A stretch of DNA of 64,000 bases, from positions 67,580,001 to 67,644,000 of the forward strand of contig CM097885.1 in assembly GCA_044892525.1 (NCBI GenBank), written 5' to 3'. Position numbers and translations under genes: made by a program. Positions 14,106-64,000 of the stretch are shown one piece after another. This DNA is from Schmidtea polychroa (Eukaryota). Under the pieces are notes generated by a model. The model was not told where the DNA came from and searched no databases. It was given only the letters and a program-made list of their open reading frames with translations. Every line of letters begins with the position of its first letter. The first letter of the stretch is position 1.

Positions 14106-14262
14106 GCATAAGACGAATAAAAATATATCATAAATATTACTTTTGTTAACATATTATCTTAATAAATATCATTCAATAAGATATTATTTTATTGAATGAT
14201 ATTTATTAAGATAATATGTTAACAAAAGTAATATTTATGATATATTTTTATTCGTCTTATGC
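14106..14262. repeat. Perfect AT-rich palindrome, 74-bp arms with 9-nt loop
   Basis: 14106-14179 is the exact reverse complement of 14189-14262. A partial direct copy of the arm start lies at about 14074-14099. Confidence 0.9.
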
Positions 14263-14791: not shown

Positions 14792-17700
14792 ATGGAACTA
14801 AATGTAAACTTTTTTCATTTCTTTAGTCATTATCAAAATATTATTTTATCTTTTATGAGCTATTGGATGATATTTATTGGTTTTGTTACATTTTGCTTTC
14901 TACTTAAATACAATGCACCATACGGTCGGTATTCAAATTATTTATTCGATTTTCACATACCTGCGAAATTAGCATGGCCTTTAATGACTATTTCCCCGGT
15001 TTTGACATTTGTTGTTTTCCTATTTGTAAAAGATTATTTTGATGTGAGAATCTTCAATTATTTTTACTTGTTATATTTTATTCATTATTTTAATAGGTTA
15101 TAATTAATTTTTGGTAATGTTAAATATTACAATTCTTATTCTAGATCGCTGATTTATCCAAATCTGATTAAAAATAGTCAACCAATGCCATTAGTACCAT
15201 TTGCACTAGCTTTTGTTTTTCATATATACAACAGTTGTTTGCAGCTTATTTCAACATTTAATAGTCAACCGTCTTTTGGATTTGTCAATATAATTGGTAA
15301 GATAAATGTTATTTTTAATTTCAGTCTAAAATATTAAGTAAAAAAATATTTTGCATTTATAAATTTTATGATGTTAGACTTGTAGTAATATTAACGTACT
15401 TATGCTTATGATCCCTTACTATACTATATTAATACATAAATGATTATATAAAATTAATTTGCAAATTAAGTAAGGGTAATCTAAATTTCCTTTCTACATT
15501 CTTTTGATGAACAAAAACTGCATTGTCCGCTTCGGTGTATTTTTCGTAAATGTACCTCAGTATCGCAAATACAACCTACAAATGTTATTTCGTCTTCAGT
15601 TTATGTTCGCAGAAATAGTTGTTTGTATGTTAAAGTACTGATTCCCAAAGTGGTCCACGTCGACAATTATCATAACCCACTACAAGCATTTATTTTTTGA
15701 TTAATTATTTTATGTAACAGATACTAAATTTTAATTTGGTTCGTTTTAATTTTAATTTAATTAATAAATGTGTAAAACTTCTTGTTTTTTTAAAGTTTTT
15801 CACACTTCACTTAATTGGAGTAAGAATTTAAATCTTTCAAAGTGAGTAGCACCATACCAACTGCCAAAAATACATTTGAAGTTGATGAATTTGCAAAAAT
15901 CAATATCAGGTAAGCAGTGGTCTACCAAAAACCGAAAAACAGGCCAAGGGGTCCACGAGACAAAACAGTTTGGGAACCTCCGTGTTAAATTTTCACTATT
16001 CATATATTATATTGGTCAAAGACAAAAAAAGGTAAAAGACAAATAAGACTAACCGACGGATTATTGGCTCTTTAAATAAACGCTCATGCTTGTCATGTTT
16101 CGACCAGTGTACCCATAACAACAGTCATGTTGGTACTGCACACTGTCCTTGAAAAATAGGTGGCAGGCGACCTGCTCCCTTACACCTCCCCCACCCATAG
16201 GTTTCTGGTGGGTTCTCAACGGTCGTTAAAATGTCTTACGACCAAATAAAAAAAAAATCACTTTCTCATCAAGGTGGTAATATTTGACATATTACTCAGT
16301 TCTATTAATTACCCCGGTCGCTCCCGTGTCATTTAACTTAATCACTTTAAAATGAAAATATCAAGACAGCAAATTATATTGATGCGACCAAAATATTCAT
16401 TCACAAACACCAAAATTTGATCACCTATATTTAAATCGAGAGTCTTCACCAGCCATTTTGTTCGATATCAGTTAAATTTCAACTGTCAATATTACCATTA
16501 AGACTTTGTGTATGTAATATCTGTATAGATGTATGTTTTAGAAACCCCTTCCAAGGTCATAGTGGTTGTAAATATTGCTGGGGCACCACTCAGTTGACCT
16601 TCCTTGATTTACGCTTAGCTCTAAGGGATGATTGCCCATTTCATAAAATCACTATTCCCTTGTCGACTTCGAGTAGGACCCCACATAATTTATCCTACAA
16701 CATGGTACCCGTGGATTGCTCCACGTTGGAACTGTACCACGCTGGCGAGACGTCAGTAAGCAGGTGAGCTCCTGCCTTAGAACTACTCCTTACTGAGGCC
16801 TCGACTTCTCCCCATGCGACTGCCGATAGAAGGACTTACGTCTACGTACGCTGTCAATCTTCCTTATGGCACGACGAATGCACATATATCCCGACATATT
16901 AAACTAATAAGCTTTCGTTTTTACACAGTTGTTAGCTATTTACCATAAAAACCCAATCACCAAAACTACAATTTTATTACAATATTATAACGTTGGACTA
17001 TACACATTTAAACAGATCACTATCGTCAGGGAGAGGATCGATGAGAAGATAGGATAGTCGAAGCATGTCAGACAATGATCGGAAAAGAGTAGTTCACTAC
17101 AGCTGTTCATTTCTCCCATTCGGTATCTTTTAGTAGTTCGTCCAGGTCAAAAAATTCACTGGCATTTTCTTCCCACGTTACCCCCGTGGCTGCGATGATC
17201 CGCGCTGGGACTCCGGTGGTTAAGTCAATCGAGAGGTGGGAGTTGGTGGTAGTGATCGGATCTCCCGCTGGAGGGTTACTAGATACTACCGAGGCTCGTT
17301 CACGCTGCCTCCTCTTACGCTCGGTCCTCGTGGGTTGCCGGCGCTTAGGTTTCGCGATTGGCCGATTCCCCTGCGGCTGAGTCGATGCAGGTGGGACATT
17401 GGGCTGCGCTTTACTAGTCCCTATGACGATAACATCCTGACAACCTGGTGAGAGTTCAGCTTCCACACACTCAGGACAGGACCTCTTGAATGGGGACGAC
17501 GTCTTCGCCGAGGTGTCGTGGTGCACCGGGAACAGATTATCGGCTTCCTGGATGGGGATTTGCACAATTTTCTTCGTCGTTGTCGCGTGCACATACACCT
17601 TGTGTAGTGCCTCGGATTGCTCTTTAATCAAGCTTCGTTGGGAGCGGCTCTCGGAGATTAGAGCGTCCCGGCAATGTTCGCTACGATGAAGCTTTTTCTG

Positions 17701-20700
17701 CATCTCCTTCATTTGCACTGGGCTGAACCATGTGCCTTCCAGCTCGTCGATCTTCCGCTTGTATCGACCGATCTGGGCTTGTAGATCTTTTATCACTGCA
17801 TTTTTGTCTGCGCAGGAGAAGCAGGGTCGTAGTACTGACTTATTCTGTGATAACATGTCGGATGGCTGTAACGAAGAAAATTAAGATAATGATACGTATA
17901 ATCGTCAGTTAGCTATAAGGGTCTATTTGGCGTGAGGTACCTGGCAAGAGGAAGGGCAAGATGAGTTAATGAGATCAATTCTCTCCCTGTATAGTCGATC
18001 ATCACAAGTTTATCTGTCCTTTACCCAATTTTACTCCTTGGATTTCTCCTTTTCCGTGCACCAAGGTAATTCACCAAAAAGTTATCTTACGGCTGTTTAG
18101 AAACTATCTCTATATTTTTACTTTAGTTTAATTTATTATTCCCCTTAATTGATTTAACTTTGTTTATTAATTATTCTATTTTACCCCCTACTTGAGTTAA
18201 AATTTTGAACGAAACACACTTAGTAAAAAGTCTATGCTCTTACCGCATTTATCGGTCCAAGTTCATTTCGAAAAAAAATTTCCATCATCCCCCCTCCGTT
18301 GGCATCTCACAATCATCACCTAAATATGCCTTTTGTACGATCATCAGAAGTCTATCATACTGTAATGATATTCGTAGATACAGGAAAATTTATTAACTTA
18401 TTAAGTTTTTAGTATAATCCATAGTTTGAGTAGGATCTAAGAAATCTAAATTCAATCTTCTCATGGGAAGGAGAAATTTCACGCTAGAAAAACTGGCAAA
18501 TTTAACGATGTGGCTAAGGTTGTGATTATCGTTTACTATACTTGGTTGGACTATAACAATCCTCTACATCGGTTTAGGAAAAGGTTCTATCATTTGGTTA
18601 CGAATATCTCTCGTTATTATCAAAAGGACATCACACTGATATATTCATTTATAATCTAAGTTACGTAATTTAGGAAAATTAATCTCAATGAATGCACTTT
18701 AAAAGGGGTCTCATATTTAGCGGAATAATTGTAGAGCAGATGGCTTATCTCTTTACTGTCATATCTCGGTAATCAATACTTGTGAATGACCCACTTGGGC
18801 CCTACTACATGCGAGTCATTATCTGATGCACATGCTTATTGCTGTTCGTTTCTGCTCACTACTTATCGGATATAATGCCGTGTGAATTGAAGTTCCTCGT
18901 GTTCATCAACTATCTCTTTCATGGGCTCTTATCTATTCGTGAGTTAGTTAACGAGCCTCTTATCAATGCATGCACGTAAAGCAAAAAAAATATTGGATTC
19001 ATCCTACCGATTTGGTAATTTCTCATCAACCCGTTTCGTAGATCTGATCAGTATGAATTGAATGTTACCTATCTGCACGTTTTTACGTTAGAAAAAAAGT
19101 TCGCGACGCTGTTACGACCGGTTAGTTCACACAACACTCTGAAACGGGATTCTTGTCTAGCTTTTCCTACTGTTGGAAATTATTACACTTCCTGCGGTAG
19201 ATGTACCAGATGCGAGTATGCCTCAAGGATGAAATGAAAGATGACTACGAAAAATCTAAATCAACGATGGAACTGTTCACGTGGCGGAAAGCTAAGTTTA
19301 CAATCGTGATTTAACTAAAATGTATTATGATGTCTTAATTTGTTATTGAAATTTTCCTTCACATCTACCGTGATAATATTTCTAATTGAAAGTAATAGTG
19401 CTATCGATCGAAGTAGTTATTTTCCGAGTGACTAGCGGTTAACTCTCGCACAAATTCGGTCTCGAACCAAGAATACAGCCAGTGGTTACGTTGAAGGTTC
19501 CGATTTTTAACGCTCACAACCTTTTTCCAGAGCTACTCAACGTCTGTTGACCTTGCAAAAACAGATAAAGTGTCCACCTCAATCACTGTGTATCGCATAG
19601 CTATTCTACTATAAGCCTGAAATTAATCTTTCGATCAAATTCCTGTTACTCAAATCAGATTTTTGGTCGCCCTCAGCGATTGAACCCGTGAAGAAACCTT
19701 CACCTGACGGCCCATTCTCGCTGCGTGATTGAAACGATGTACGTCCAACGATAGAGCTCCCGAAGGCACCTCTTGTCATGAACGCCATCCATCTCAACGC
19801 CACGTTTCTCAATAAATTTCATATTCATAAAATAGTCATACACATAAATCATGAACTCCTACAATAAATCGTTTATTTATGAATGATTATTACATCGAAA
19901 TAACTATTTAAATAGAAATAAATAAGTAAATAAATAAATAAATTCCTTACTGGGAAATCAAATGAAGGAATAAAACTTCTTAAGTTAAGAATTTAATCAT
20001 TAAATAATTGCTCATAACACTTAATAATCTAAAGAAGAAAATCGCCTTACTGTAGTTAATGAATCGAAGTTTGTGAGCTGAGTCGAAAATTATACGCTAT
20101 CTCTCTGCAACGTTGATTTAGTAGAGTACGATACTGTTGTTCCCTCGAATTATGATTTCCTGTTGAATGCGTTGAGTAGGTTTCGTTGATTCTTGAGTCC
20201 TGATTGTCTATATCTGTAGTAATTTTGAAATTAACAGTGAATGTAATGGGTCTTGTGTCTGTATATATAGTATTTTTGCGTGTATGCGGACCAATCAGAT
20301 TTGAGTACCGCTTATTTTAATTATTTAATTTATTTTTTTCTGTTTTATGATTATTTTCCCTTATTTTCTTTGTTTTTATTATGTTTTTCTATTTATTTCC
20401 TTAACTTCCTCATTATTTATTAAATTTCCTTCCTTTTGTTGGTTGATCTATTTTCCTATTTCTATTTTCTTATTTTCTTATTTTGTTTTAATTCTTATTT
20501 TTCTAATTCTTATTTTTCTTATTTCTTGTTCCGTTTTATTCTTAAGTTATTTATTTTGTTTTTATTTTCTTTAGTATCTTATTTGTCTTACCTTCTAAGT
20601 TTAAATTTCCTAAGTTTACATTTTCGACGTTTAAATTTTCGACGTTCGACGTTTAAATTTTCGACTCAGCCCAACAATATAAATATAATACATGTCCACT

Positions 20701-23700: not shown

Positions 23701-26700
23701 TGAAGTTAATCAAGATATCCAATTAGAACTCATCGATTTGCAGTCATCAGATCAGCTTCGTAATAAATTTAACGAAAGCGATCTTCAAAATTTCTATAAA
23801 TGTTTACAAAAAGTGTCATATACTAATTTAATTCAAAAAGTAGCATACATTGCATCTTTATTTGGTTCAACATACTGCTGGGGTGTTACTCGTTTGACTA
23901 CCAGTAATCCCACTTCAGTCTAGGAGATGAGTGCCCATTATGATTATACTTGCCGTCACTTTGTCAACCCTGAGCAGAACCCCACATAACCTGCTATCCA
24001 ACATGGTACCCGTGAATTGCTTCACGTTGGTACTGCACCATGCCGGCGGGACGCCAGTAAGCAGGTGAGCCCCTACTTAGGACTACTCCTTACTGAGGTC
24101 TCGACTTCCCACTCTCGACTGCCGATAGAAGGACTTACGTCTTAACCAAACTCTGACTTCCTCTTTCTACCTTTGGTTGGATCACGGCTGACTAATATTT
24201 CTAGAATCTCGAGAGCTTTCCACCCTTATCATTATTGTCATACTAAATCCATCACACATGAAACAATGAAAACTCAAAATTATTTATTATTATTGTTATC
24301 AGACATGTACAACATTTATGGGTTATATATACCCGAAAAACATCAAGACGAGAAAAATAATGAAGAAAACTCGATGATTTTTTAGTTCGACTGGTTTGCC
24401 ATACGACAGAGTTATCCTACGAGAGCCTTTTCATTTCTCCCACTCTGTAGCTGCTAACAACTCCTCTAAATCGAAAAACTCGGAGGCATTCTCCTCCCAA
24501 GTCACTCCAGCAGCAGAAATAATTCGTCCGGAGATCCCTGACGTTGGATCCGTTGTCACCGAAGGAACACTGGCTTCACTTATGAGCTCCGTTGGTTGTA
24601 CGTGCTGCTTGGCGGTTATTCGCTCACGCTGTTTCTTTTTGCGTTCGGCTCGGGACAACTGCCGACGCTTTGGCTTTGATGTCGATGGGTTAGATTGAGG
24701 TACAGTGGACACAGAAGCTATCGCAGGAGGCGCTTGACTTGTTCCCACATAGATGATGTCGGGTTGTTTTGGCGAGAGCTGTGTCTCTACACACCCTCTA
24801 CACGACTTCTTAGGAGGAGGCGACGAGGTTGAGGAAGTGTCATGGTGTGCCGGAAAGAGGTTGTCGGCTTCATTGATTGGAATTTTTACAATCTTCCTCG
24901 TGGTTGCTGCCTGTAGATAAACTTTGTGCAGTGCTTCGGACTGCTCCTTTATCAGGCTTCTTTGGGAACGGCTTTCGGAGATCAAAGCGTCCCGACAATG
25001 TTCGCTACGATAGAGCTTTTTCTGGGCCTCTTTCATCTGAGCGGGACTGAACCAGGTCCCCTCTAATTCGTCTATTCTCTTCTTGTACCGCCCAATCTGG
25101 GTCTGTAGATCCTTGATAATGGCGTTCTTATCCGAGCAGGAGAAGCAAGGACGCAACGCGGGCTTGGCAGTTGGTATCATGATCACTATAAAGGTAAGAT
25201 GGAGATGTAAAATATACAAGATTCAAACTAAAGTGAACATAACTGACTGGCTACTCGTGGATACTTGACAGACAAAAAAGGGAAGAATCTATTTTACATT
25301 CCGGTTCTACTGCATAACTTATTTACAGAAAAATTTTATTTAATTAGATGTCATTGACTTGACGAGTGCAATTGATTCTAATTCCCAAAATTCTTTAAAT
25401 AAGGGTATGTGATTTCTACTGAATTCCCTTTTCACTCAATCGTTACACTATATCGGCGCTGATTACTTTCTCAAAAACTCTCCCCCCTTTTATATTCTAC
25501 TAGTCTAATTTTATACTTGAGGGTTTGTAATGGTTAATAATATTATAGTTATGATACTGATAATGTAATATAATAACGCTTTAGTAATAATGATATTATG
25601 ATATTCAATCAGAATTTTGTAGATTATTTATTTTAATTTATCGAAAAAACATACATTTCGCTAAAATAACTAGTTTAAAATCGTCGCTATCCTTTAACAT
25701 ATTTAATTCGTGGTTTACTGGCAATTGCACTTTAATGATTTTCGCGTCTCTACTGATTTTACTGTTAATTTTGTTATCTGCAATAACTACTCTTTACCTG
25801 AGAGAACGTCTGAAAATTTTCAACATATGTGTAATGATCTTACGTCAGCTGTTATCCTAACACGCTTACTTTACATTATCTCGCAGAGACGGAAAATTTC
25901 ATCGGGCACGACATATGTCAAAATTCGCTACTGCTGATGATGACTAATTGATTGCATTATCTACCTCATGTGGGTACTATTACTCGTGGCTACTATGCAT
26001 GCCTATCTAGTACTCTGTGTGCCTGTCATACGGACTCTCGTGTGCTGTTACTGCTACCTTATCTCATTTGCTTGGTATGTGCCATTTTCACAGAGATTTT
26101 ATCGTTCCTGATGTCGCATGATTTTTACTGAACAGTGGTTTACCGGAATTATAATTTATGCTACTGTCAGGTCTCATCGTGGAATTTTTATCATCACCAA
26201 CTCGTGTGAACCATCACCATCGTTTGGAACTTTATTGGATATCTCAATGATTGTTGAAGGAACAATTCTACAAAATGCTGAGGTTTTATTACTCCCTACG
26301 CTACCCTAAACTCAGATTTTCTTATTCGGATGGAATATCGTCTCAATGAAATCTACTCTTAGCCTTTCACAATTTTTCCCTCAGACACTATACATTCGGA
26401 AATTTGGGTAGACATGGTGATGAGCTGGCTTTCTTTGTGAAAAATAAATGTTATCAGATGGATTTTTGTGGTATTTTATATTTTTATAATTTTTTGAATT
26501 ACTTAATTTTTTTGGAATTTAATAATATTTTGGAGTTTTAATATAATATACATTCTGAACGGACTTATAGAAATTGAGTGTACGACAACAAAATTTTATG
26601 CTAAACTATTGTTACGGAGTTCGGACAAATAGAATTTGCAATACTTAATTTGGTAGAACTATGTTTTTCAGATGATGTACACTATGAGGCGACACTAGAT

Positions 26701-29700
26701 TTTGACGAATTTACTGAATAGTTGCATGGATTTCTTTCGGCTAACCTAGATGTTAAAAAGTTCACGAAGACGACTAAATGAAGTTATAGGGTGACGCCCT
26801 CAATCACTATGTGAATTCTCAAAAATACTTTCGTTCAGTTATACATCTATCCTGTCGATCACTGTCTGGCTATCATTTTTCTAGAATACTCTGTTTATAC
26901 AATTTAGTCGCATCTTCAGCAATTGGACCCGTGAAGAAGCCTTCACATTTCGGCCCAATCTAGCTGCGTGATTGAAATACTCCATGTCCACCGGCTGAGC
27001 TCCCGAAGGCACCTCACACCCTGACATGGAGTATCTCAACTCCACGTTACTCAACAAATAAAAATTCATAAAATATTTAATGCAATCAATAAAACATAGA
27101 AATCTAGATAAAAATTATTTATTAATTCTATGATACTCAGACATGTAAATTTTATTAAACATTAAAAATTACTAAATGTGGAATCAAATGAAGAGTTGTT
27201 TAATAAAGAATTTACTATAATTCAGTCTTCATAATTACTTTAATGTAAACTAAAATTCTAAACAAAAGTTCGGCTTACCAATATACTAGATGCTGAGCTG
27301 AGTCAAAAATTCAAATCGAATGTTCCTGAAAATTAGGCTGTTCGCTGTAAATCTGGATAGTTCTCAAATGTTGTCTCGGTTCCTCGTAGTTTTCTGTAAG
27401 TAGTTGCTGTCGTCGGTAAAGTGTTTGAGTTAACTGTGATCTATTGAATGTTGGAATTAACGGTATTTCTAATAAATTCGCTTACCTATTGAATGTTGAA
27501 ATTAACGGTAAGTTTATGATTTTTATGTTTGCTTATATAGTAAATTCTGGTGTATGCGGACCAATCAGAATTGAGTACCGCTTATTTTCTTAATTTAATT
27601 TATTTTTTCCTGTTTTCTGGTTATTTTTCCTTCCTTTCTTATTTTTATTATATTTTTTATTTATTTCTTTAATTGACTCATTATTTGTTGCATTTTCCAG
27701 TATTTTGTTCGTCATTCTATTGTCTTATTTTAATTTTTCTTATTTTTATTTTGTTTTAATTCTTATTTTCTAATTATTGTTTCTCTTATTTCTTATTCTA
27801 TTTATTCCTGAATTTATTTATTTTATTTTTAATTTCCTTTAATATCTTACTGTCTCAATGTCTATATTTTTGAAAGTTAAGTTTTTTGACTCAGCCCAAC
27901 AATACGTATGCGAACAAACGTTCTCTGTTATGAACATGAACAAGTCGAAGCAATGTAACCGCCTTTCAAATACTAAATTACATTCAATTCTACGTTTGGG
28001 AACAACAAACTTGACACCAAATATTTTAAAAATTGTTAATAAAAAACAATGTCATATTGCTCAAAAAAAAAATTAAATTAATTATTTCAACTAAATTAAA
28101 ATGCATTTTTTGTATATAGAAACCGGGTTATAATTTAAAATTTTACAGATTAGGTGTTTTTTTCTAAATGTGGCCTTCATAGAATGTATTATTAGAAAAT
28201 GTGGCACCCATACTGAAAAGTCTGTGCATCCCTGCTGTAGATAATCTACAAAGGCAACTGAATGATTTATGGTATGATATATATAGCCATAATCACTAAG
28301 TCCTGTATAACCTCATCAGTTGTCAGTCATGATGGTAGCTCCAGTTAAGACATTTGCTTAGATGAATTCTAAACACGTCGCACAACTTTTATTACGTACA
28401 AACATCCACCTAACTTGTTTTGTGCGCCTGCAGATCACACCAATTATCCAATATCTTTTCCCGGCTAGGATCCTAACTATTCCATCTCGTCTTCACACCA
28501 CGTGAGTTTCATCAATTTCAGCAATCTCACTTGGTCCACCAATTTTCCGAGCGGTTCAGTTACATAAACTGTATCCATACATAAGAGAAACTTGTTAATA
28601 AAGTTATTCAAGCTCTTTTCACCGTGCTGTACTTACAATAATAACTGTGAAATTGGCAATAGCATAGCCCTTAAATACATGATTCGTAGGCATTTGCTTA
28701 ATGGCATGTAATTTCCTTCAAAAATACTATTCTTAAAAATAGATTCTGATGAGCGGCAACTTCTACTAGAGCGCCATCTCCCATTTATTCCGTGTAGAAT
28801 ATTACCATATCATAAGCTCCTGTTTCTTCCACAAACATCACAGTAATTTACACGTCATATCAGCCCCTCTTCTAGTAAAAATTGGAGTGAATCTCTTCAT
28901 TCATTGTAAGCTCTGTCAACTCAAAATATTCATTGTAAAGGTTTGAAAAAATGAGTAAAATAACCAACTTTTATATGTTTTAATGTTTTTATTTTTTGCC
29001 ACCCCCAAAACCCGTGTCATACCAAAAAATTTAATAAAGAAAGAACACTTTAATGAGAGCAATGAGTTTGCTTTAAGACTTAATACTAAATGTTAGAAAC
29101 CAATTTTGCTAAGCTTAAATTTCTGTCACTGGGCTGAAAAATACAACAAGTTCATAGTCACAAAATGATAGAGTAATATTTTGGATGTTGGTGTAACCTG
29201 GAACCTAGATCTAGACTAGAGGTTTTTAATCTTTTTTAGTAGCGTAGTAAAATTATAAAATTCTAGAAATTATTTTGAGTTGTTACAAAAAAAATTTCAG
29301 AAATTGTAAAATTTTAAAGAACCATTTGGAACTTGTCGAGAAACCCTTGAGCTCCGTAGAGCACACATTGAAAACCAGTTATATTTGTTTTATTTTTAAC
29401 AATATTGGTAAATAGTTGAATGAAAAATTAATATGAAGGAAAAATGATCTATTATTGTATATTTCTAGTTGTACTGTCGTGTAATGACCATTTTCAATTA
29501 AAATTAATTAATCTCTACATTTTATTCGGTTATTTATAATGTTTCGCTAATCCTGACATTTAAATAAAATCGATTTCTTGCAATCAGAAATTGTTTTGAA
29601 TAAAGAGTTAAAAGGCGCCATAGTTCGATTTATACTAGAATTTGGTACGACTTTAGTATTAAACGTCAAACAATCGGATTTGATTCAATGCCACAATTTC

Positions 29701-43270: not shown

Positions 43271-43680
43271 ANNNNNNNNNNNNNNNNNNNNNNNNNNNNN
43301 NNNNNNNNNNNNNNNNNNNNNNNNNNNNNNNNNNNNNNNNNNNNNNNNNNNNNNNNNNNNNNNNNNNNNNNNNNNNNNNNNNNNNNNNNNNNNNNNNNNN
43401 NNNNNNNNNNNTCAATGATCATGAGATAATTAACTCTAATATAGAAAACTGTATACCCACCGACCCCTGCCTTGAAGTATCTATTATTCTTCCGTCTAGA
43501 TATCGACCCTCTCCTCTCGATGATACACCATCATCCTTCCATCTTATCTGCGGTCAGAGACCTGCATCCTGTTGTTGCGAGTACGCGACTCGGATGACCC
43601 CTTTCTAGTGCAGCTTTAGTCTAGAGGATGAACGCCCACCTCGATTTCGCCCGTCATTTATATGGTCATCGCCGAGCGGG

Positions 43681-43846
43681 ACCCGTACATAACCTACACT
43701 CCAACATAGCACCCGTGAATTGCTTCACGTTGGAACTGTGCCATGCCGGCGAGACGCCAGTAAGCAGGTGAGCCAGCTCATTCGGACTACTCCTTACTGA
43801 GGCCTCGACTTTCCAACCCTGACTGCCGATAGAAGGACTTACGTCT
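43681..43846 (-). ncRNA. Conserved structured motif A (A3)
   Basis: GCAA-loop hairpin at 43714-43729, with the same stems as A1/A2. Confidence 0.7.
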
Positions 43847-44139
43847 ACTCATTCCGTCGCCCCATCGCAATGTTTCTAGCTGAGTTTGTCAACTGACTAA
43901 TGCTCCTCATAATTTTGTGACTCTCAATACCATTTACCAATTTCAACTCAACTGTCCTAAGATGAACACAAAAAAAAACGTATGCAGACAAAAATGGTTT
44001 ATTATTAAGATTATCACACAAATATATCTAACACCTATACAATACAATTCACGACAACAGGAAAAGAGACAAAGGTAAAAATGTTATCAGACAATGTTCG
44101 GGTCATTTCAGAGAACGAAAACCTTTTACGGAGAAGTTC

Positions 44140-44889
44140 TCATTTCTCCCACTCCGAGTCTGCCAATAGATCTTCCAAATCGAAAAATTCAGAGGCGTTT
44201 TCCTCCCAGGTTACACCAGCGGCGGAGATGATTCGCCCTGAGATCACTGATGCTAGATCGATTGCTGCAGGAGGGTTGATGACTTTGATTGGATGATTCG
44301 GCGATTTCTGGTTCTGTTTGGCGGTTACGCGTTCCCGCTGTTTCCTTTTGCGTTCGGCTCTCGATAATTGCCGACGCTTTGGCTTCGATGCCGTTTGATT
44401 GGTCGGGGGTGCTGCAGAGGTAGATGCTATCGCAGGTAGCACTTTACTGGTTCCGGTAAAGATGATTTCTGGTTCTTTAGGTGAGAGCTCGGTCTCTACG
44501 CACCCATGGCAGGACTTTCCGACTGGAGAAGAAGACCCGCCAGAAATGTCATGGTGCGCCGGGAAAAGATTTCCGGCTTCATTAAGTGGGATCTTCGCGA
44601 TCTTCCTTGTGGTTGCTGCCTGGACGTATAATTTGTGCAGCGCCTCCGACTGCTCTTTTATTAGGCTCCTCTGCGCCCGACTCTCGGAAATTAACGCGTC
44701 TCTACAGTGCTCGCTTCGGTGCAGCTTCTTCTGAGCCTCCTTCATCTGGGTGGGACTAAACCATGTCCCCTCTAACTCATCTATTTTTCTTTTGTGCTTT
44801 CCGATTTGGGCCTGGAGCTCTTTGATAATTGAATTCTTGTCGGAACAAGAAAAACAAGGTCGAAGAACGGTCTTGGGATTTGGCAGCAT
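44140..44889 (-). CDS. Orphan 249-aa protein, copy 3
   Basis: Intact ORF. Acceptor TTTCCTTCTTAG (AG at 44899-44900) 9 nt before the ATG. AATAAA at about 43998. Confidence 0.85.
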   Translation of the reverse strand: MLPNPKTVLRPCFSCSDKNSIIKELQAQIGKHKRKIDELEGTWFSPTQMKEAQKKLHRSEHCRDALISESRAQRSLIKEQSEALHKLYVQAATTRKIAKIPLNEAGNLFPAHHDISGGSSSPVGKSCHGCVETELSPKEPEIIFTGTSKVLPAIASTSAAPPTNQTASKPKRRQLSRAERKRKQRERVTAKQNQKSPNHPIKVINPPAAIDLASVISGRIISAAGVTWEENASEFFDLEDLLADSEWEK

Positions 44890-46662
44890 TTGTAGTGACT
44901 AAGAAGGAAAGATGGAAAATGAACACACATTAAATCAATGAGAGTGTCATCATTTACCCACCTCCATATTTTACTAATCATAGACGAAAATATGGGTTTA
45001 TCATTCAAAGAGATCCTACCACCCTATGGATCCTCATCTCTTTTGGGGTCATTAATTATAAGCAGATGAATCAATCAAGCCGGATTTCGGACAAGGGAGG
45101 GGAGATAGTACCACTAGTGAGAGAATTTATAGGTCGAGGAAATTATTATTTATTTAATTCGCTTGAAGTCACTAATTAACGTGCGCAGAGAATCGAGTTA
45201 GATCGTTGGTTTTCCTCTTAGAGGAGGATTTTGTTGAGTGTATTATATACTGGGTCGAGTAAATATCTACGGTAAAGGGGGTTCATAATGCACTCTAATT
45301 AGTTCATACATGATGAACGGGAGGTTGTTTAATTTTTCGATTATTTGTTAATTCTCTCAAATTATCCACATATTTGTTTTATCTTGTTAAAATAATACTT
45401 GTTTAATAATAGTTGATATTAATGCTAATAATAATTAGGTCAAAAAAAATTGAAATAGGTTTTGTGTCATTCATATTAAGATAATAAAAGACAAATAATA
45501 ATAATTATAATTGGTATTAGCATCAAAAGATATTGTCGTTGTGATAGCTGAAAACGGTATCCATGCGAGATAGTAGCCGAGCATTCCTGCTAGGTAGATA
45601 AGGAAATGTCAGCCCGGTGGTTGGCTATTAATCCGGAGCGGTGAAATCTGATACCTGTCGGTGGTTTAATTAGCTAATGGAAATTCCATCTGGTATGTTC
45701 GGTCCGATTTTACATGAGTAGGGGCGGGTGTAACTTTACCCACTGTGCTTGGCTACTGTGTATGTCTGCAACTGGGTGACGCATGCAAGGTGCGCTTTCA
45801 CACACTTATTTATACTTATCGCTAGTAATGTAGGTTTTAAATGTTTGCATGCTGGCATTTTCTCGGGTTTTATCTACCGCGTAATTGCTCATAACTCTCC
45901 TGCATATGATGTTGATCTACTAATTCTCACCGAATTATTGGAAAAATTATGGTTCTCTATACCGCAATTGTTGGATATAGTTTGCTCCAAGGGTGGATTT
46001 TTTGTCTTTAACCCCTCAAACACGGTGTATCGATCTATTCCTTAAGTTCTGGATATTTTCTACCTATCCCTGCTGGATTTCCAACTCCATGGAATATTGG
46101 AATTTTATATTTAAGTAACAAGATCATCAGGCTAAATTGGAAAATTATGTTTTCTTGGCTCGAATTGGCTGCATTTCTCATTTTAAATTATTCGATGACA
46201 AGAGTTTATGTAATTATGATAATTAATTGAATGTAAATCCTTTTATATAAAATTCTAAAAATTAATTATAGTAAATCATCTTATGTAATTTAAAATTTTA
46301 TTTGGGACAAACTCGTTTTATGAAATTCCAAATAATTATCTGAAATCAATCATTTTACATGGTTCTACCATTTATTTGCAAGCAGTCAATTTAAGTAATC
46401 CTAATACTTATCTGAAGCAATCTACTTTGAACTCCCTTGCAACTATGTCTTTCAGAGAACTTTTAGATGAACGGAATAATAGTTCTAAAGGTCATAGGCT
46501 AAAAATTGGTCGGAACAGATTCAGAGTGAAAAGTAGGAACATTGGAGATATGTCACAGATAGCCTCACTAAGGTTCGAACAATTTTTGACGCACAACTTA
46601 CATCGATGATAGAGAAAATTTAGGCTTAGTAGAAACGATATTTGAGGACGATAGTGTGACAC

Positions 46663-46920
46663 CCTCAATCACTGCGCGAATACATAATAATTCTCGGATT
46701 CATTTATTCATATATCTCTGTTCTCGGTCACTGTATGACTATCAATTTTCTATCAAAATTTGCCTATAGATTTTAGTCGCACCTTCAGCGACGGACCCGT
46801 GAGGAAGCCCCCACATTACGGCCCGAATCAGCTGCGTGATTGAAATACCCTATGTCCACCGGTGGAGCTCCCGAAGGCACCTCACACCATGACATAGAGT
46901 ATCTCAACGCCACGTTTCTC
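46663..46920 (-). ncRNA. Conserved structured motif B (B3)
   Basis: Stem ATACCCTATGTC (46845-46856) / GACATAGAGTAT (46891-46902) with a C-G to T-A compensatory change relative to B2. cUUCGg loop. Confidence 0.72.
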
Positions 46921-47153
46921 GCAAAATTGAATAGTCTCCAGTAATAATTCATAAAAATAATTCGTAAAAGATCAATAATTCCTAACGAGCAAGTCATTTA
47001 TTATTAAGCAAATTATTAATTTAAATAGAGCATTCGAAAATCAAACGAAAAGAAAAACCATTCTTTAAATTAAAATTATTATTAGACTATACGCATTACT
47101 TAAAATTTCAAAATAAGAAATCACAAATCCTTACCGAATGATTGATATAAGTA

Positions 47154-47762
47154 TGGGCTGAGTCGAAAAAGGGTACTGTGTCGAATCAGTTAATGCTCGA
47201 ATATCGTCTAGTTCTGTAAAAATCTCTTGAATCTTGGAATTGTCCTCGTGAGTTATCGTGCGTTAGTTGCTGGATTTCTGTTCTGTCGTAGAATAGATTT
47301 ACCTATTGAGGTGGTTTGATTAACAGTAGTTGTTATTTAAATTTCACTTACCTATTGAGGTGGTTTGATTAACAGTAATTGTTATGTTTTTAATGCCTGC
47401 TTATATATTAATTTTTTGTTTACGCGGACCAATTAGAATTGAGTACCGCTTAATTTTATTAATTTAATTTATTTTCCTTGTTTTTGAGTTATTTCTTCTT
47501 ACTTTCTTTATTAAAATTATGTTTTTATTTATTTTCCTTAATTTTCTTATTATTTACTATATTTTACGTTGTTTTCTGTCATTCTATTGTCCTATTTTAA
47601 TTTTTCTCATCTTTATATTTTTTGTTTTAATTCTTATTTTCTAATTATTGTTTTTCTTATGTTTTATTCTATTTTATTTGTCAATTTATTTGTTTTTATT
47701 TTTTATTTTATTTTAGTTAAGCTTGCCCTAATTTCCCAACTACCCTTCGACTCAGCCCAACA
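47154..47762 (-). promoter_or_regulatory. IR-bounded promoter module of unit 3
   Basis: TGGGCTGAGTCGAA / TTCGACTCAGCCCA inverted repeats. CGGACCAATTAGA at about 47425-47437. TATATAAG on - at about 47400-47407. Consensus donor CAATAG|GTAAGT at about 47346-47357. Confidence 0.7.
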
Positions 47763-48079: not shown

Positions 48080-48634
48080 TTAGTTACTCGGGATTCGAGG
48101 TCGGAATGGGGTTGGGTTAAGATTTGTCAGTGGCACTTCTTGAGGATTTCTGTTCGAGATTACTCTTATTGATGTCGAGATTCTACATCTATTTCTAACT
48201 TCGTAAATCTTCATGAGTATTGGTAGACATAGGAGGAGGGTTTCTGCGATCACCACATATATGAGATAATGGGTGTCATTGATTTCGGGAGGTGTTTTTG
48301 GCTTTTCTACAAGATTTTCGAAATTCTCTTGTTGCATTTGTTGTTCTAACTGGTCGAATTGTTGGATTTGTTCGAGGATTTGTTTGTTTATCATTTTACA
48401 AATGGGATTCTTTTTACACATTGTTTGGATGTTGTTGATGTGTGATCGGGTTGATTGAATGGTTTGGATGATATGGATTTTTACTGTCATAGGGTATGTG
48501 CATTGGCTGGATTCTTGTTTAGGTTCTTGATTTTGATTGCGGTAATCTCGTACGATTTTCGGTTGGGCGTTTACTTGTTTGTTCTCCATCAGAATTATCA
48601 ATACCGTCATTGTTATCATCATCTCGCCTCGCAT
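48080..48634 (-). CDS. Small predicted type I membrane protein (signal peptide, Gln-rich coiled coil, TM)
   Basis: Hydrophobic N-terminus MMITMTVLIILMENKQVNA. TM segment YLIYVVIAETLLLCLPILM. ATG at 48634 follows an AG acceptor at 48639-48640. Confidence 0.65.
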   Translation of the reverse strand: MRGEMMITMTVLIILMENKQVNAQPKIVRDYRNQNQEPKQESSQCTYPMTVKIHIIQTIQSTRSHINNIQTMCKKNPICKMINKQILEQIQQFDQLEQQMQQENFENLVEKPKTPPEINDTHYLIYVVIAETLLLCLPILMKIYEVRNRCRISTSIRVISNRNPQEVPLTNLNPTPFRPRIPSN

Positions 48635-48690
48635 GATACTATTATACATTCATTAGGTTTTATTTACAATTGGTTTTAGTGACCCTTAAT

Positions 48691-49395
48691 TTAATGGTTC
48701 TGATTTGGGTTATTTTCGGCGATTCTCATCAAGGTGGATTCTGCTTTAATGACCCTGTGTCTTAACTCGGGCAGCATTTCCAACTGTCTGTTCTTTTCAC
48801 GGGCCTCCCTTTTCATGTGCCTTATCTCCTTTTTCAGTCTTCTAATTTCTTCCCGTTTTTTGTCGAGATTCCTTTTTAGTTCGATTTGTAGGAAGTCTTG
48901 TTCATTTTCCTGCGAAAGGTTTCGTTGTTGTTGTTGTTGTTTTCCCTCGATCTCTTGGTATTTGCGAATCCATTTCTTCATTTCCTCACTTTCTCGTTGT
49001 TTTTCCTCCAATTGTCGATTTAGTTTATTTATAGTTATTTGGTGTTCTTTCGCCTCTGTTTTCCAATAATCCTGGATTACTTCTTCTGCCTTGAAGCTTG
49101 CCCTCTCTTGCCATAGTTCCTCTGCAATCTTTTCCCAGTTTCTTCCTCGTGTTCGTTGTTCTTGCAGCCATTCATTCTTCTCTTCAGCTTCTCTCTTTAT
49201 TTCTCCTAGCACTTCGCACTCCTTCTTTAGTATTTTAATCATTTTTCGGTCTTCTATATATTTGTTTACTAGTCTCTCGTTTTCGTACTTCTCTTCCCGT
49301 AACTTGGCCTTTAACGTTTGTGTTTCTGTTGTTTCTGCCTCAATCTCTCCCTCTTCTACGTCGCTCGTAATTTCTATTATTTCCTCGATTTTCAT
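48691..49395 (-). CDS. Glu/Lys/Gln-rich coiled-coil protein
   Basis: Open frame 48691-49449. The likely start is MKIEE at 49395, 2 nt after the acceptor CATATTACAG. Confidence 0.7.
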   Translation of the reverse strand: MKIEEIIEITSDVEEGEIEAETTETQTLKAKLREEKYENERLVNKYIEDRKMIKILKKECEVLGEIKREAEEKNEWLQEQRTRGRNWEKIAEELWQERASFKAEEVIQDYWKTEAKEHQITINKLNRQLEEKQRESEEMKKWIRKYQEIEGKQQQQQRNLSQENEQDFLQIELKRNLDKKREEIRRLKKEIRHMKREAREKNRQLEMLPELRHRVIKAESTLMRIAENNPNQNH

Positions 49396-49564
49396 ATCTG
49401 TAATATGTACAGTTAATGGTGCGCTATAGTGCGACTTATACATATACATTTATATAAAATTTAATAGTTCGGGTTACAGTCCCTCGAATACTTTTATAAT
49501 ACTTTAATTTTTTTTTTGTTTGGGATATACGTCCCGATTTTTGTTTTCATCTTTTTATTCACCC

Positions 49565-50620
49565 TTATACGAAGGTTTCCTCCTGTCCCACATAACCTTC
49601 ATCACTATCGACCGCTGGATGCAACTGTATCGCGATAGGGTCATAGGGTAGGTAATATTGGGGGATTTGAGCTCTCAATTCATTAACTTCGTCTCTTAGA
49701 GCTCGAGTGATATTCAGCTCTTCGTCGAGCAGATAAGTGAGATACCTTGTTTCTTCGTCTTTCGCCTCTACTTGTCTATCTAAGGCCTTGATTTTCTCGT
49801 CGCCCTTCCATCTTTCAATTTCTATTTCCAAGTTTTTGATATTTTCGGTATACATTTTCCTCTCGTTTTCTAATTTTCTGTTTTTTCCCGCTAGGACCAT
49901 GTTTCTTTGTTCTAACGATCCTTGTAATCCATTAAGGTCTCTTTTCATCTCTTCGACCTGATTTACTAATTCCACAACCCGTCCTGCTTGCTGGGTTATC
50001 ATCTCTTCCATTGCGGCATTCTCGTGCTCTCTTATGTCGCATTTTATTGCCAAATGTCGCTCAAACTCCATAGCCTTCATCTGCCATGTTTGGCTTCGGG
50101 CGGCGACCTTTTTCAACCGTTTCAGTTCTTCCTTTATTATTAAATTTTCCTCCCATTTGCCCTGTTCGCTCTCATATCCGAGTCTCATGGGCAATTCTTT
50201 CATCTCTTTTTTCATTTCATTGCTTTGTCTTTTCCATTTTCTCGCTTCTGCCACTAAGTGCATCATTTTCCTTCCTTCTATTTGCTTTTCCGCTTCGCGC
50301 TTGGTGTTCTCATCGGTAAGTCTCTTTCTCGCTTCCTGCACTAGCTGCTTTAAGTAGTGGCTGTGCGCTTCTTGGCGGGTATTTTCTAGTGACGCCCATT
50401 TTGATGCTCTTTTGCATGCTTCTGCTTCCGCTCTTAAGTTGTGTATTAACCATTGGTATTGACTATTCTCATCCTCTCTAGCTTCTTCGATGTGATTTCG
50501 GGTGCGATTAGTTAGTTGGAACATTACTTTGTTCCATTTTTTGTTATGTTCTCGGGGAATTTGTGTCTTGTTGACATTGGTTGGGGCTATCGCAGTTTCG
50601 GTTATTTCCTCTTGTGTCAT
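49565..50620 (-). CDS. Coiled-coil protein, 351 aa
   Basis: Long open frame with heptad-rich charged composition. Acceptor ATTTAG 2 nt before the ATG. Confidence 0.75.
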   Translation of the reverse strand: MTQEEITETAIAPTNVNKTQIPREHNKKWNKVMFQLTNRTRNHIEEAREDENSQYQWLIHNLRAEAEACKRASKWASLENTRQEAHSHYLKQLVQEARKRLTDENTKREAEKQIEGRKMMHLVAEARKWKRQSNEMKKEMKELPMRLGYESEQGKWEENLIIKEELKRLKKVAARSQTWQMKAMEFERHLAIKCDIREHENAAMEEMITQQAGRVVELVNQVEEMKRDLNGLQGSLEQRNMVLAGKNRKLENERKMYTENIKNLEIEIERWKGDEKIKALDRQVEAKDEETRYLTYLLDEELNITRALRDEVNELRAQIPQYYLPYDPIAIQLHPAVDSDEGYVGQEETFV

Positions 50621-50813
50621 CTCTAAATCATAGACATCGATTAATCTTTTTATTATGAAAAAGGAATTTATTCATTATTTACTGTTTCTTTGGAAATTTT
50701 CGCATCATTTTTGGGTTTTCGTATTTAGGGTTTTTCATACTATTATTATATAATATTTATTGGTTATATACACCGATATATACAGATTATTATATACAAC
50801 ATTATTCGATTGG

Positions 50814-51965
50814 TTACTCCGTTCTACCCTTCTCCTCTTTCCTCACGGTCATCTTGATATACACCGTGTCATTTCTTGCCATATCTTCTACTTTTTGTTG
50901 TAGGATGAACGTAGGTGCTCCTGTTGCTGATCCTTCTTCTTCCGTAGGTCTCTGGTAACACATTTGGTTTCCAGTTGTCTTGAAGCTTTGTTCGTGGGTG
51001 CTTCGGTCATTCATTAGTGCAATATCGATTTTTGCCTGGAACGGCCACTCTATTATTTCGTCGTATTCCCCTTTACATAACAGAAAGAAAATCGAAAAGT
51101 GCGTATCTAAGCCGGTTCCGTCCCCGTTGGGATATATCTTCATTTTCATTTTGTACCCATTTTTCCAAGAATGGAATGCAGGACTTGTTATTCTTGCCTC
51201 TTCTCCGGTTTTTGCTTTTCGTATTCTTTCTTTTACTCCCGTTATTTTCCATATGTAGGGTGCTGTTGGGGTTATCTCATTTAGATTTATTTCCCGTATT
51301 TTCTGATGTAGCTCCTTGGCCTGATTATTACTGATTTCTATTCGGTTTATTTGCATCTTTATGTTTGCTCGGGCTTCTTCGAACGCTTCCCTTTCTTCTA
51401 GTAGTTCTTTGACTAACACTTTCAACGATGTTAACTCTGCACATACTCTCTCCTCTTGGACATTGTGATGTTTGATGGTGAGATTTCTCCACGTATCTAT
51501 TTCTCCACAATGTTCACATCTTTCTAATCTCTCTTCACACTGCCTTTGATGCTCTTTTTCTTCGCTTGCTCGAATGGTTTTATGGCACCTTTCGCACTGG
51601 CCGATTCTGTACATACATTCTCCCATATGTTGTACTACCTTCCATATTACTCCTTTCCATTCGCATGGGGCATTTTTGCATCCCAGGTTGGTGTTTAACA
51701 TGTCTTTCACTGCGGCTTTATCCTCGTTAGTGTCTTCTAAACTCGATATTAGTGTCTCTTTACACACCGGGCACCACTGTGGTCTATTCTTTATTGCTTC
51801 ACTGATACATTCTTTACATACTCTGCATCCACATTGAGTTTGGTGAGGTTCCTTTAACAACTTTTCACATATTCCGCACATAACATGTTTGTGTATTCTG
51901 ATCGTTGTAGATTTTCGGACTTGCTCGACAATCTCTCTGAACTCTTCTCTTTGTCGTTTATCCAT
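50814..51965 (-). CDS. TRAF-family protein (RING, TRAF-type zinc fingers, coiled coil, MATH), intronless, element-borne
   Basis: RING CGICEKLLKEPHQTQCGCRVCKEC...CPVC. CKNAPCEWKG..HMGEC zinc fingers. MATH motifs YIWKITG, SPAF...GYKM..IYPNGDG..THFSIFF.LCKGEYD..EWPF. Confidence 0.92.
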   Translation of the reverse strand: MDKRQREEFREIVEQVRKSTTIRIHKHVMCGICEKLLKEPHQTQCGCRVCKECISEAIKNRPQWCPVCKETLISSLEDTNEDKAAVKDMLNTNLGCKNAPCEWKGVIWKVVQHMGECMYRIGQCERCHKTIRASEEKEHQRQCEERLERCEHCGEIDTWRNLTIKHHNVQEERVCAELTSLKVLVKELLEEREAFEEARANIKMQINRIEISNNQAKELHQKIREINLNEITPTAPYIWKITGVKERIRKAKTGEEARITSPAFHSWKNGYKMKMKIYPNGDGTGLDTHFSIFFLLCKGEYDEIIEWPFQAKIDIALMNDRSTHEQSFKTTGNQMCYQRPTEEEGSATGAPTFILQQKVEDMARNDTVYIKMTVRKEEKGRTE

Positions 51966-52050
51966 TCTATAATTATATGTACATATAGTTCTTGTCGATA
52001 CAGGTTCGATATTTTATTTACAATTATTTACATTTTAAGCTAGGTTGGGT

Positions 52051-52410
52051 TTAGGGTTCGGAAGAGTCGGTTTCGTGTCCGCTCTCCTCTCTATTCATTA
52101 GCCATTCCGACCAGTCTTCTATTTCTGTCTGTTCTGCTTCCTCCATTATTCTGTCTAGTTCAATTTCCTGTCTACGGCTATATTGGGTTATCCTCTCTAT
52201 CTCTCTTTGCATTTGTTCGATTTTCAACCTCTGGTCTTCAATTATCTTCAAATAACTAAATCCTCTATTCATACTCTCGATTAGGTTTCTGTGCATCGTC
52301 AATCCTTGTTCTTGCAGATTGGACACTAATTGTGCTAATACGGCACATTGTTGCTTCCATAATTCTTCAGTTACTGTATTGTGGTTCATTTCGTTATTTC
52401 CTTGATTCAT
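52051..52410 (-). CDS. Small coiled-coil/acidic protein
   Basis: Open frame. First ATG at 52410, 1 nt after an AAG acceptor-like site. Confidence 0.6.
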   Translation of the reverse strand: MNQGNNEMNHNTVTEELWKQQCAVLAQLVSNLQEQGLTMHRNLIESMNRGFSYLKIIEDQRLKIEQMQREIERITQYSRRQEIELDRIMEEAEQTEIEDWSEWLMNREESGHETDSSEP

Positions 52411-52570
52411 TCTTAATTTATATACACTTTTCAACTCTTATTTAAATTTAATTTTATTTTATGATTCCCGTTATTGTATAATATTGATACCGCGCTTGTA
52501 TAAAGATATAGTACTGTTATATACATAAGATATACTTACTTTTTACAATTATATACAGTCATATTCCTTT

Positions 52571-63990: not shown

Positions 63991-64000
63991 TTTTGTTTGT

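What the first reader, a model, noticed from the sequence alone, without database searches (positions are those of the whole stretch)
26798..27052. Motif B: structured element with a cUUCGg tetraloop inside the putative intron
Seen in all three units (19575-19812, 26798-27052, 46663-46920). It has an invariant GAGGTGCC-UUCG-GGAGCTC on -, an enclosing stem that is a perfect 12 bp in B2, has a C-G to T-A compensatory swap in B3 and is re-sequenced yet still pairs in B1. An invariant 8-bp complement TCAATCAC/GTGATTGA spans about 150-170 nt. The flanking spacer is barely alignable. Known: retroviral psi and RRE elements lie downstream of the major donor so that only unspliced RNA keeps them. Inference: a packaging/export signal or a stable intronic RNA.
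Basis: partly seen in the sequence, partly recalled or inferred. Interest (0 to 1): 0.75.

Follow-up and report, generated by a model that had tools for sequence, protein, structure and literature searches.

The report
Conserved RNA signal inside retrotransposon LTR
A giant jumping gene carries a small, probably spliced gene inside each of its 4-kb end repeats, and the only conserved part of that gene's intron is a folded RNA of no known family that most likely marks the unspliced copy as the one to be exported and packaged.

Summary
Motif B is real. It lies in three diverged ~4.1-kb LTRs of a Burro-like giant gypsy element; two are solo LTRs with 4-bp target duplications. Its 140-nt core is 75-87% identical between copies, while four-fold codon sites of the LTR's own ORF are saturated (27-43%). 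It folds on the - strand into two abutting stem-loops, with 7 of 53 pairs changed on both sides. No Rfam family matches. Two corrections: the cUUCGg register is only 4-29% of the predicted ensemble, and the 8-bp long-range helix competes with the main stem and shows no covariation. Each LTR reads as promoter, AUG-free exon, intron holding B, 249-aa ORF (arginine-rich helix, acidic tail), poly(A) signal. If splicing occurs, only unspliced RNA can pass the intron on, so B most likely marks genomic RNA for packaging or export (0.55). The boldest reading is a Rev/RRE-like pair held wholly inside an LTR (0.2); against it, no export signal is shared by the three proteins. Splicing, strand and binding are not shown by RNA data. 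The scan's notes held no earlier report of this motif.

The parts
23876..27901 (-). Solo LTR (unit 2, 4026 nt) holding motif B; starts TGTTGGG, ends CCCAGCA; 4-bp target duplication GTAT
26917..27052 (-). Motif B2 core: two abutting stem-loops
26967..27046 (-). P1: long stem-loop with invariant base, variable compensated middle (12-bp stem 27034-27023 with 26988-26977) and invariant apex
26997..27015 (-). Invariant apical 19-mer; either a UUC triloop above two G.G mismatches, or a cUUCGg loop above a 3x2 purine-rich internal loop
26917..26966 (-). P2: second stem with an asymmetric bulge and a terminal hairpin (26946-26931); a similar hairpin occurs in motif C
26798..26808 (-). Invariant distal block, complementary to 26975-26968 and exclusive with the base of P1
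25186..27278 (-). Putative intron (GTAAG donor at 27278; AG at 25187-25186), 2093 nt, no stop-free frame above 88 aa
   Evidence: splicing inferred, not shown
27279..27581 (-). Conserved promoter block (27581), TATA (27539) and ATG-free putative exon 1, with a block at 27304 antisense to the LTR's first bases
24431..25180 (-). 249-aa ORF: two N-terminal helices, basic helix (residues 177-192), acidic-aromatic C-terminus; under purifying selection; AATAAA at 24288
23876..24141 (-). Motif C, a second conserved structured block at the LTR's 3' end (putative U5)
16576..20676 (-). Solo LTR (unit 1; target duplication ATAT) with B1 at 19810-19576 and ORF at 17856-17107
43573..47762 (-). Unit 3, probable 3' LTR (no target duplication; right end uncertain by a few bases) with B3 at 46920-46662 and ORF at 44889-44140
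48080..58953 (-). Internal region in front of unit 3: RT-RNase H-integrase, ankyrin ORF, RING-MATH/TRAF ORF and three ORFs without a Pfam match; the pol and ankyrin frames are not continuous; the 5' part is replaced by a + strand RT element

Best explanation
Motif B is a cis-acting RNA signal that marks the unspliced, full-length RNA of a giant gypsy retroelement as the genome to be exported and packaged. Shown here: the units are LTRs; B is under strong purifying selection; it folds best on the - strand; it is the only conserved part of the intron. Inferred: transcription starts about 30 nt behind the TATA, so the ~3.2 kb up to the AATAAA is R. A spliced RNA (exon 1 plus the 249-aa ORF) lacks B and is the LTR's own mRNA. 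The unspliced RNA has 56-65 ATGs before the LTR even ends, so it can hardly be scanned for gag-pol and would serve mainly as template. An intron in R survives retrotransposition only if intron-keeping RNA is the one copied, so that RNA must be told apart. B presents invariant modules (base of P1, purine-rich apex, bulged P2) on variable, compensated stems, as protein-binding scaffolds do. The distal block may switch the base of P1 between two states.
For: LTR ends and 4-bp duplications. Core identity 75-87% and 96 of 140 columns invariant, against 27-43% at four-fold sites. Core z-scores -2.9, -6.9, -5.7 on - against -0.7, -4.0, -2.7 on +; consensus energy -59.5 against -34.9; 22 G-U against 2 A-C cells. 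93.7% of 158 cells paired, 7 of 53 pairs changed on both sides (4 of 500 shuffles), slid controls 39-46%. In DNA-type run X1, laid on unit 3 at 80% likeness, summed contig depth is 21,701 in the B bin against 240-1,156 in the five spacer bins, and two joint rows (2 contigs each) link core and distal block across unlike spacer. Splice signals and ATG-free exon 1 in 3 of 3. Separate RNA pools for translation and packaging are known for BARE (abstract of PMC3735527).
Against: Only 3 sequences; the pair-keeping test gives P 0.004-0.02 with 70% transitions but 0.12-0.31 if all changes are transitions. The structure was derived from these same sequences. No spliced joint from 47134 to 44899 is among the 15 of 68 joint rows shown. 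Unlike retroviral psi, B lies about 3.1 kb before the LTR's end, far from any primer site, and would occur twice per genome. Its loop is not self-complementary. No 5' LTR, primer-binding site or gag of this element is in the window, and no purine tract precedes unit 3.
Confidence: 0.55

Rival explanations
1. B is a nascent-RNA tether (TAR-like or anti-terminator) for the LTR's 249-aa protein. The protein's basic helix binds B and its acidic tail boosts elongation or read-through of the 5' LTR's poly(A) signal.
For: The last 25 residues hold 8-9 D/E and 7 F/W/L in 3 of 3 proteins, like an acidic activation domain (the likeness is recalled). No export-signal pattern is shared by the three. A canonical AATAAA sits inside every LTR, so read-through is needed for full-length RNA.
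Against: B starts about 430-460 nt behind the inferred start and about 2.7 kb before the AATAAA, far from both. The protein could equally be a DNA-binding activator unrelated to B.
Confidence: 0.15
2. B is a splicing regulator (like the Rous sarcoma virus NRS) that sets the share of intron-keeping RNA through host factors.
For: Fixed place 219-240 nt behind the donor in 3 of 3. The NRS does this job in RSV through a decoy 5' splice site (abstract of PMC3082916).
Against: No invariant decoy donor: GTRAG occurs within B in 2 of 3 copies. Long stable stems with invariant loops fit a protein scaffold better than a single-stranded SR-protein site (inference).
Confidence: 0.12
3. B is a ribozyme or a reverse-transcription element, for example guiding strand transfer across an unusually long R, perhaps together with motif C.
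For: Many invariant unpaired bases and a possible two-state switch. A hairpin pattern found 6 times in the window lies only in B and C. No purine tract precedes unit 3, so priming may be unusual.
Against: No Rfam ribozyme match. A hammerhead core string occurs in 1 of 3 copies. The B model scores motif C at only E 3.6, and the B and C hairpins vary independently within units.
Confidence: 0.08
4. B is a stable intronic RNA (snoRNA-, miRNA- or Pol III-type) released from the intron.
For: Intronic place, sharp 5' edge after an AU-rich stretch, two-hairpin shape.
Against: No C box, A box or B box in 3 of 3. No hinge between the hairpins. The arms that would give a miRNA vary while the apex is invariant. 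Best Rfam E 3.2.
Confidence: 0.06
5. The conservation is at DNA level (enhancer, or hairpin in single-stranded cDNA), or is an artefact of recent descent.
For: The long stem also folds on + (z down to -4.0). Transcription is not shown.
Against: Four-fold sites are saturated, so descent alone cannot keep 69% of columns invariant. One-sided changes give G-U on - but A-C on +.
Confidence: 0.04

Closest known systems
Burro/GYPSM1 giant gypsy-like LTR retrotransposons of dugesiid planarians (passages of PMC6431247)
   Same: Host element has RT-RNase H-integrase order, ankyrin repeats, a MATH/TRAF accessory ORF and further accessory ORFs.
   Different: Accessory ORFs lie behind pol here. The gag/env/BIR/BCL2 part is not in the window. 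The passages read describe no LTR-encoded gene, LTR intron or RNA element.
HIV-1 RRE stem IIB with Rev (passages of PMC4488727, PMC6649712, PMC3342944, PMC10746203)
   Same: Structured element that only intron-keeping RNA would retain; a partner candidate from a spliced mRNA with a basic helix. In the cUUCGg register the apex can be drawn as G-C, G.G, bulged U, G.A, C-G. That matches 7 of the 9 letters of G46-C74, G47.A73, G48.G71, U72, C49-G70, with the G.A pair inverted.
   Different: B lies in the LTR, not in env. No export-signal pattern is shared by the three proteins. No sequence or fold likeness to Rev. The loop's letters alone occur 31 times in the window, so the likeness is a lead only.
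Retroviral psi packaging/dimerisation signals (recalled; search listing of PMC5035971)
   Same: Behind the first splice donor, multi-stem, lost on splicing.
   Different: Inside R, about 3.1 kb upstream of the LTR's end; no self-complementary loop; duplicated at both ends of the genome.
Constitutive transport elements, e.g. M-PMV CTE (passages of PMC10746203)
   Same: Discrete structured RNA that could export intron-containing RNA without a viral adaptor.
   Different: No Rfam match. The apex is the most conserved part here.
Rous sarcoma virus NRS (abstract of PMC3082916)
   Same: Intronic element behind the donor that favours unspliced RNA.
   Different: No invariant decoy donor.

Membership tests
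LTR of a gypsy-type retrotransposon | TG...CA ends with short inverted repeat and target-site duplication | tested here: met
   Units 1 and 2 have TG...CA ends and 4-bp duplications; unit 3 has none, as expected of a 3' LTR
LTR of a gypsy-type retrotransposon | Adjacent pol in RT-RNase H-integrase order | tested here: met
   window 56242-58953, upstream of unit 3 on the same strand
LTR of a gypsy-type retrotransposon | Polypurine tract before the 3' LTR; primer-binding site after the 5' LTR | tested here: inconclusive
   No purine tract before 47762; no 5' LTR in the window
Burro elements | MATH/TRAF and ankyrin domains beside pol | tested here: met
   features from PMC6431247
Burro elements | Giant ORF1 with gag, BIR, BCL2-like and env regions | not testable with these tools
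   5' part replaced by another element; no genome held
Rev-response-type element with Rev-like protein | Structured element kept only in intron-containing RNA | tested here: inconclusive
   Splice signals and ATG-free exon 1 in 3 of 3; no spliced joint among 15 of 68 rows shown
Rev-response-type element with Rev-like protein | Purine-rich loop with non-canonical pairs that widens the major groove | tested here: inconclusive
   Drawable in the apex; the register is ambiguous; the letters are common
Rev-response-type element with Rev-like protein | Partner with an arginine-rich RNA-binding/NLS helix | tested here: met
   10 of 18 residues R/K in 3 of 3 proteins, modelled as helix 177-192; an arginine-rich stretch was printed for 6 of 10 relatives; sequence feature only
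Rev-response-type element with Rev-like protein | Leucine-rich nuclear export signal | tested here: not met
   Nine spacing patterns (recalled): 2, 0 and 1 hits; none shared by all three proteins
Rev-response-type element with Rev-like protein | Oligomerisation on the RNA and export activity | not testable with these tools
   Needs bench work; the model shows two long N-terminal helices, 15-39 and 46-98
Retroviral psi/DIS | Located behind the major donor | tested here: met
   219-240 nt behind the predicted donor in 3 of 3; donor use not shown
Retroviral psi/DIS | Self-complementary kissing loop | tested here: not met
   Loops are UUC/UUCG and variable 4-nt loops; the palindrome GAGCUC is paired in the stem
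Retroviral psi/DIS | Selective Gag binding | not testable with these tools
   No gag of this element in the window
Box C/D or H/ACA snoRNA | C box near the 5' end; or hairpin-hinge-hairpin-ACA | tested here: not met
   No C box in 3 of 3; hairpins abut without a hinge; no Rfam match
miRNA precursor | Conserved arm with variable loop | tested here: not met
   Arms vary with compensation and the apex is invariant
Hammerhead or other Rfam ribozyme | Catalytic core or family score | tested here: not met
   Core string in 1 of 3; no Rfam hit over B
RSV NRS-like splicing regulator | Decoy 5' splice site within the element | tested here: not met
   GTRAG in 2 of 3 copies

The most novel reading that the evidence does not exclude
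The LTR is a self-contained Rev/RRE-type switch. Its spliced RNA makes a basic, oligomerising protein that binds motif B in the intron of unspliced RNA and licenses it for export or packaging. This would be complex-retrovirus regulation in a gypsy element, with both halves inside the LTR, so that solo LTRs can still supply the protein in trans and act as helpers or decoys.
Probability: 0.2. Interest if true: 0.85.

Novelty: new variant of a known kind. Interest (0 to 1): 0.58.

Why it matters
How LTR retrotransposons keep, export and package unspliced RNA is known for few elements, and the review passages read name Rev-like adaptors almost only in retroviruses (PMC10746203). An LTR that is itself a two-exon gene, with a conserved RNA structure in its intron, is a compact system in which that question can be tested with a reporter. 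It also implies an R region of about 3.2 kb and solo LTRs with intact, selected ORFs. If the LTR's own protein reads B, it would be an independent origin of Rev/RRE logic. Searches listed no paper on such an element; the original Burro paper was not held.

Tried and rejected
Rfam: 0 matches at gathering score in 64 kb; best E 3.2 over B; 2 weak matches elsewhere at E<=1. More copies of B: the covariance model found only the 3 training copies, their own antisense hairpins, a weak match at 28581-28643 (E 3.4) and motif C (E 3.6); nhmmer found only the 3. Viral contigs gave 0 for two DNA patterns and 0 confirmed of 40 candidates for the protein. Metagenome contigs gave 1 match, rejected as chance: it lies antisense in a 446-aa bacterial-type ORF and shows no BLAST likeness or B fold. 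No whole genome is held. Sequencing runs: no RNA holder listed for unit 2, which is no evidence either way. Runs X5 and X6 ('RNA?' is a guess) cover the B bin of unit 3, but they are unstranded contigs whose profile follows the DNA run; X7 covers 1 of 30 bins. Only 40 of 1332 variant rows were shown, none in B, so no extra covariation was gained. I laid unit 3 plus internal region, not unit 2. Protein: no Pfam family; 0 of 985 candidates in the word search; 10 profile hits, mostly gene models fused to unrelated host domains and unnamed, and 3 more; the ankyrin part of P0013 is unrelated to the element's; atlas best score 0.82; no fold match at E<=0.001. The Turner 1999 runs and the third parameter set repeated the earlier numbers (cached) and were discarded; one search is the valid Turner 1999 run. 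One intron tile outside B also folds well (z -3.2 at 45573; 4 of 40 tiles are below -2.5 and 3 of them overlap B). Strand exchange between the B and C hairpins was rejected because they vary independently. A TAR-like string in the apex is recalled only and was not pursued. Look-ups in the scan's notes by place, sequence and words found nothing on this element.

Full report
OBSERVATION. The motif is there. The apical 19-mer occurs three times on the - strand and nowhere else with up to three mismatches; none is expected by chance. The alignment shows a conserved core of about 140 nt, a poorly alignable spacer and an invariant 11-nt distal block. The perfect 12-bp stem of B2, the C-G to U-A swap in B3 and the re-sequenced but pairing stem of B1 are as described. 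Two points need correction. First, the cUUCGg register has probability 0.04 (Turner 2004) or 0.28-0.29 (Turner 1999). The rival, a UUC triloop over two G.G mismatches, has 0.94 or 0.43-0.44. For the isolated hairpin the two parameter sets disagree on the winner, so the loop is undecided. Second, TCAATCAC is already used in the base of the long stem. The distal helix is therefore an alternative state, with probability up to 0.015 (2004) or 0.006, 0.06 and 0.46 (1999). The complement is unlikely by chance (0.25-0.4% of 20,000 shuffles, post hoc) but, being invariant, has no covariation. The core also has a second stem-loop that directly abuts the first.

IS IT UNDER SELECTION AS RNA? Four-fold codon sites of the neighbouring ORF are 27-43% identical between units, so neutral sites are saturated. 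The core is 75-87% identical, with 96 of 140 columns invariant. Along unit 2, three-way identity is 0.54-0.63 in the core bins, 0.14-0.27 in the spacer, 0.34-0.64 in the ORF and 0.81 at motif C. Core z-scores are -2.9, -6.9 and -5.7 on - against -0.7, -4.0 and -2.7 on +. Of 40 intron tiles, 4 fall below -2.5 and 3 of these overlap B. Consensus energy is -59.5 on - and -34.9 on +. On the sequence-only alignment 93.7% of 158 cells pair, 7 of 53 pairs change on both sides (4 of 500 shuffles reach this), and slid controls give 39-46%. There are 22 G-U cells against 2 A-C cells. Against this: there are only three sequences, the structure comes from them, and my pair-keeping test is significant with 70% transitions (P 0.004-0.02) but not with transitions only (P 0.12-0.31). 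In run X1, laid on unit 3 at 80% likeness, summed contig depth is 21,701 in the B bin and 36,246 in the motif C bin, against 240-1,156 in five spacer bins and 5,749-8,753 in the ORF bins. Depth is not a copy number, but it says that many other contigs keep B while the spacer differs. Two joint rows of two contigs each link core and distal block across unlike sequence, so the distal block travels with the core in other copies.

WHERE IT SITS. The three units are LTRs of 4.0-4.2 kb. All start with the same 14 letters. Units 1 and 2 end in CCCAGCA and are flanked by 4-bp duplications, so they are solo LTRs. Unit 3 has no duplication and follows an internal region. That region has RT, RNase H and integrase in gypsy order, ankyrin repeats and a RING-MATH/TRAF ORF. 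This resembles the Burro elements of planarians (passages of PMC6431247), but the gag/env part is replaced by another element, so I call it Burro-like only. Earlier notes on this genome also call it flatworm-like. No purine tract precedes unit 3. Each LTR reads as a two-exon gene: conserved promoter block and TATA, GTAAG donor 624-629 nt from the LTR start, B 219-240 nt further on, a pyrimidine-rich AG 5-9 nt before the ATG of a 249-aa ORF, then AATAAA, then motif C. The 663 nt of putative exon 1 contain no ATG, where the intron's rate (122 in 6514 nt) predicts about 12 (counts). That fits a 5' leader spliced to the ORF. Units 2 and 3 have a further GTAAG near offset 412-417 that unit 1 lacks. 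Splicing itself is not shown: no such joint is among the 15 of 68 rows shown, and the RNA-type runs are unstranded contigs.

THE PROTEIN. The three ORFs are 64-73% identical and under purifying selection. They have no Pfam family and no fold match. A profile search gave 10 relatives, mostly gene models fused to unrelated host domains, as expected of a repeat inside introns. The model has helices 15-39, 46-98 and 177-192, with mean pLDDT 62 and pTM 0.26. The last of these overlaps a stretch with 10 R/K in 18 residues, and an arginine-rich stretch was printed for 6 of 10 relatives. The C-terminus is acidic and aromatic. No leucine-rich export pattern is shared by the three proteins.

MECHANISM. 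If the promoter and poly(A) signal are used, R is about 3.2 kb and contains the intron. An intron in R is inherited only if intron-keeping RNA is the one reverse-transcribed. That RNA has 56-65 ATGs before the LTR ends, so it is a poor message for gag-pol and is probably a dedicated template pool, as described for BARE (abstract of PMC3735527). It must be told apart from spliced RNA, and B is the only conserved thing that splicing removes. Its build, invariant modules on variable compensated stems, is that of a protein-binding scaffold rather than of a small-RNA precursor. I therefore put 0.55 on a packaging/export signal, read by Gag or by the LTR's own basic protein. In the cUUCGg register the apex can be drawn as G-C, G.G, bulged U, G.A, C-G. 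The Rev site of RRE stem IIB is G46-C74, G47.A73, G48.G71, bulged U72, C49-G70 (passages of PMC4488727 and PMC6649712): 7 of 9 letters agree and the G.A pair is inverted. This is post hoc, and the letters alone occur 31 times in the window, so it is a lead only. Rivals: a nascent-RNA tether for an activator or anti-terminator (0.15), an NRS-like splicing regulator (0.12; abstract of PMC3082916), a ribozyme or reverse-transcription element (0.08), a stable intronic RNA (0.06), a DNA-level element or artefact (0.04).

COMPARISON AND NOVELTY. B works most like psi, RRE or CTE but is a member of no Rfam family. It fails the kissing-loop test for psi/DIS and the decoy-donor test for NRS, and its partner candidate fails the export-signal test for Rev-like proteins. 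No further homologue was found in viral contigs, and the one metagenome match was chance. Paper searches listed nothing on an RNA element or gene inside a planarian gypsy LTR. I read passages only of PMC6431247, PMC8532177, PMC11410931, PMC4558846, PMC3342944, PMC4488727, PMC6649712 and PMC10746203, the abstract and outline of PMC3735527, and no supplements. The original Burro paper was not held, and its supplement may describe LTR anatomy. Verdict: a real, selected RNA structure of no described family, in an unusual setting; function inferred; new variant of a known kind; interest 0.58.

Noticed in passing
window 27304, 20084, 47164 (- strand) against LTR starts 27901, 20676, 47762: A block in putative exon 1 is the reverse complement of 13-15 of the LTR's first bases and covaries with them (unit 2 differs on both sides). 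It could pair only in RNA that includes the 3' LTR, suggesting 5'-3' circularisation or a role in priming, since no purine tract is seen.
   Followed up: partly
window 24141-23876, 16842-16576, 43845-43573; relatives at 41518-41205, 16242-16100, 12195-12035: Motif C is even more conserved than B (0.81 three-way identity, highest contig depth), has 9 of 46 pairs changed on both sides, starts with a perfect donor string, holds a string antisense to a donor, and recurs in other LTR-like ends. No Rfam match. It deserves its own study.
   Followed up: partly
all three LTRs: Offsets from the LTR start are nearly constant for the antisense block (593-599), the donor (624-629) and the distal block (1091-1095), although the promoter block shifts by 52 nt. 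Unexplained.
   Followed up: no
window 20939-21499 and 40539-40862 (- strand): Two more ORFs resemble the C-terminal half of the 249-aa protein (26-28% identity for the first; the second by eye only), apparently from older related LTR families; no motif B was found near them.
   Followed up: partly
window 13800-12000 (- strand): Decayed small gag/protease-like region followed by AATAAA and a remote motif C relative; read by eye.
   Followed up: no
window 11275-11343 (- strand): Weak hammerhead HH9 match, E 0.28, below the gathering score.
   Followed up: no
window 14106-14262: 157-bp near-perfect palindrome, 98%; weaker ones at 30273-30380 and 30999-31233.
   Followed up: no
window 4701-6671 (- strand): Single-ORF gamma-tubulin complex component gene.
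   Followed up: no
window 58667-62800 and 63330-64000: A + strand RT element truncates the gypsy pol; a ~218-bp tandem repeat lies at the window's end.
   Followed up: no
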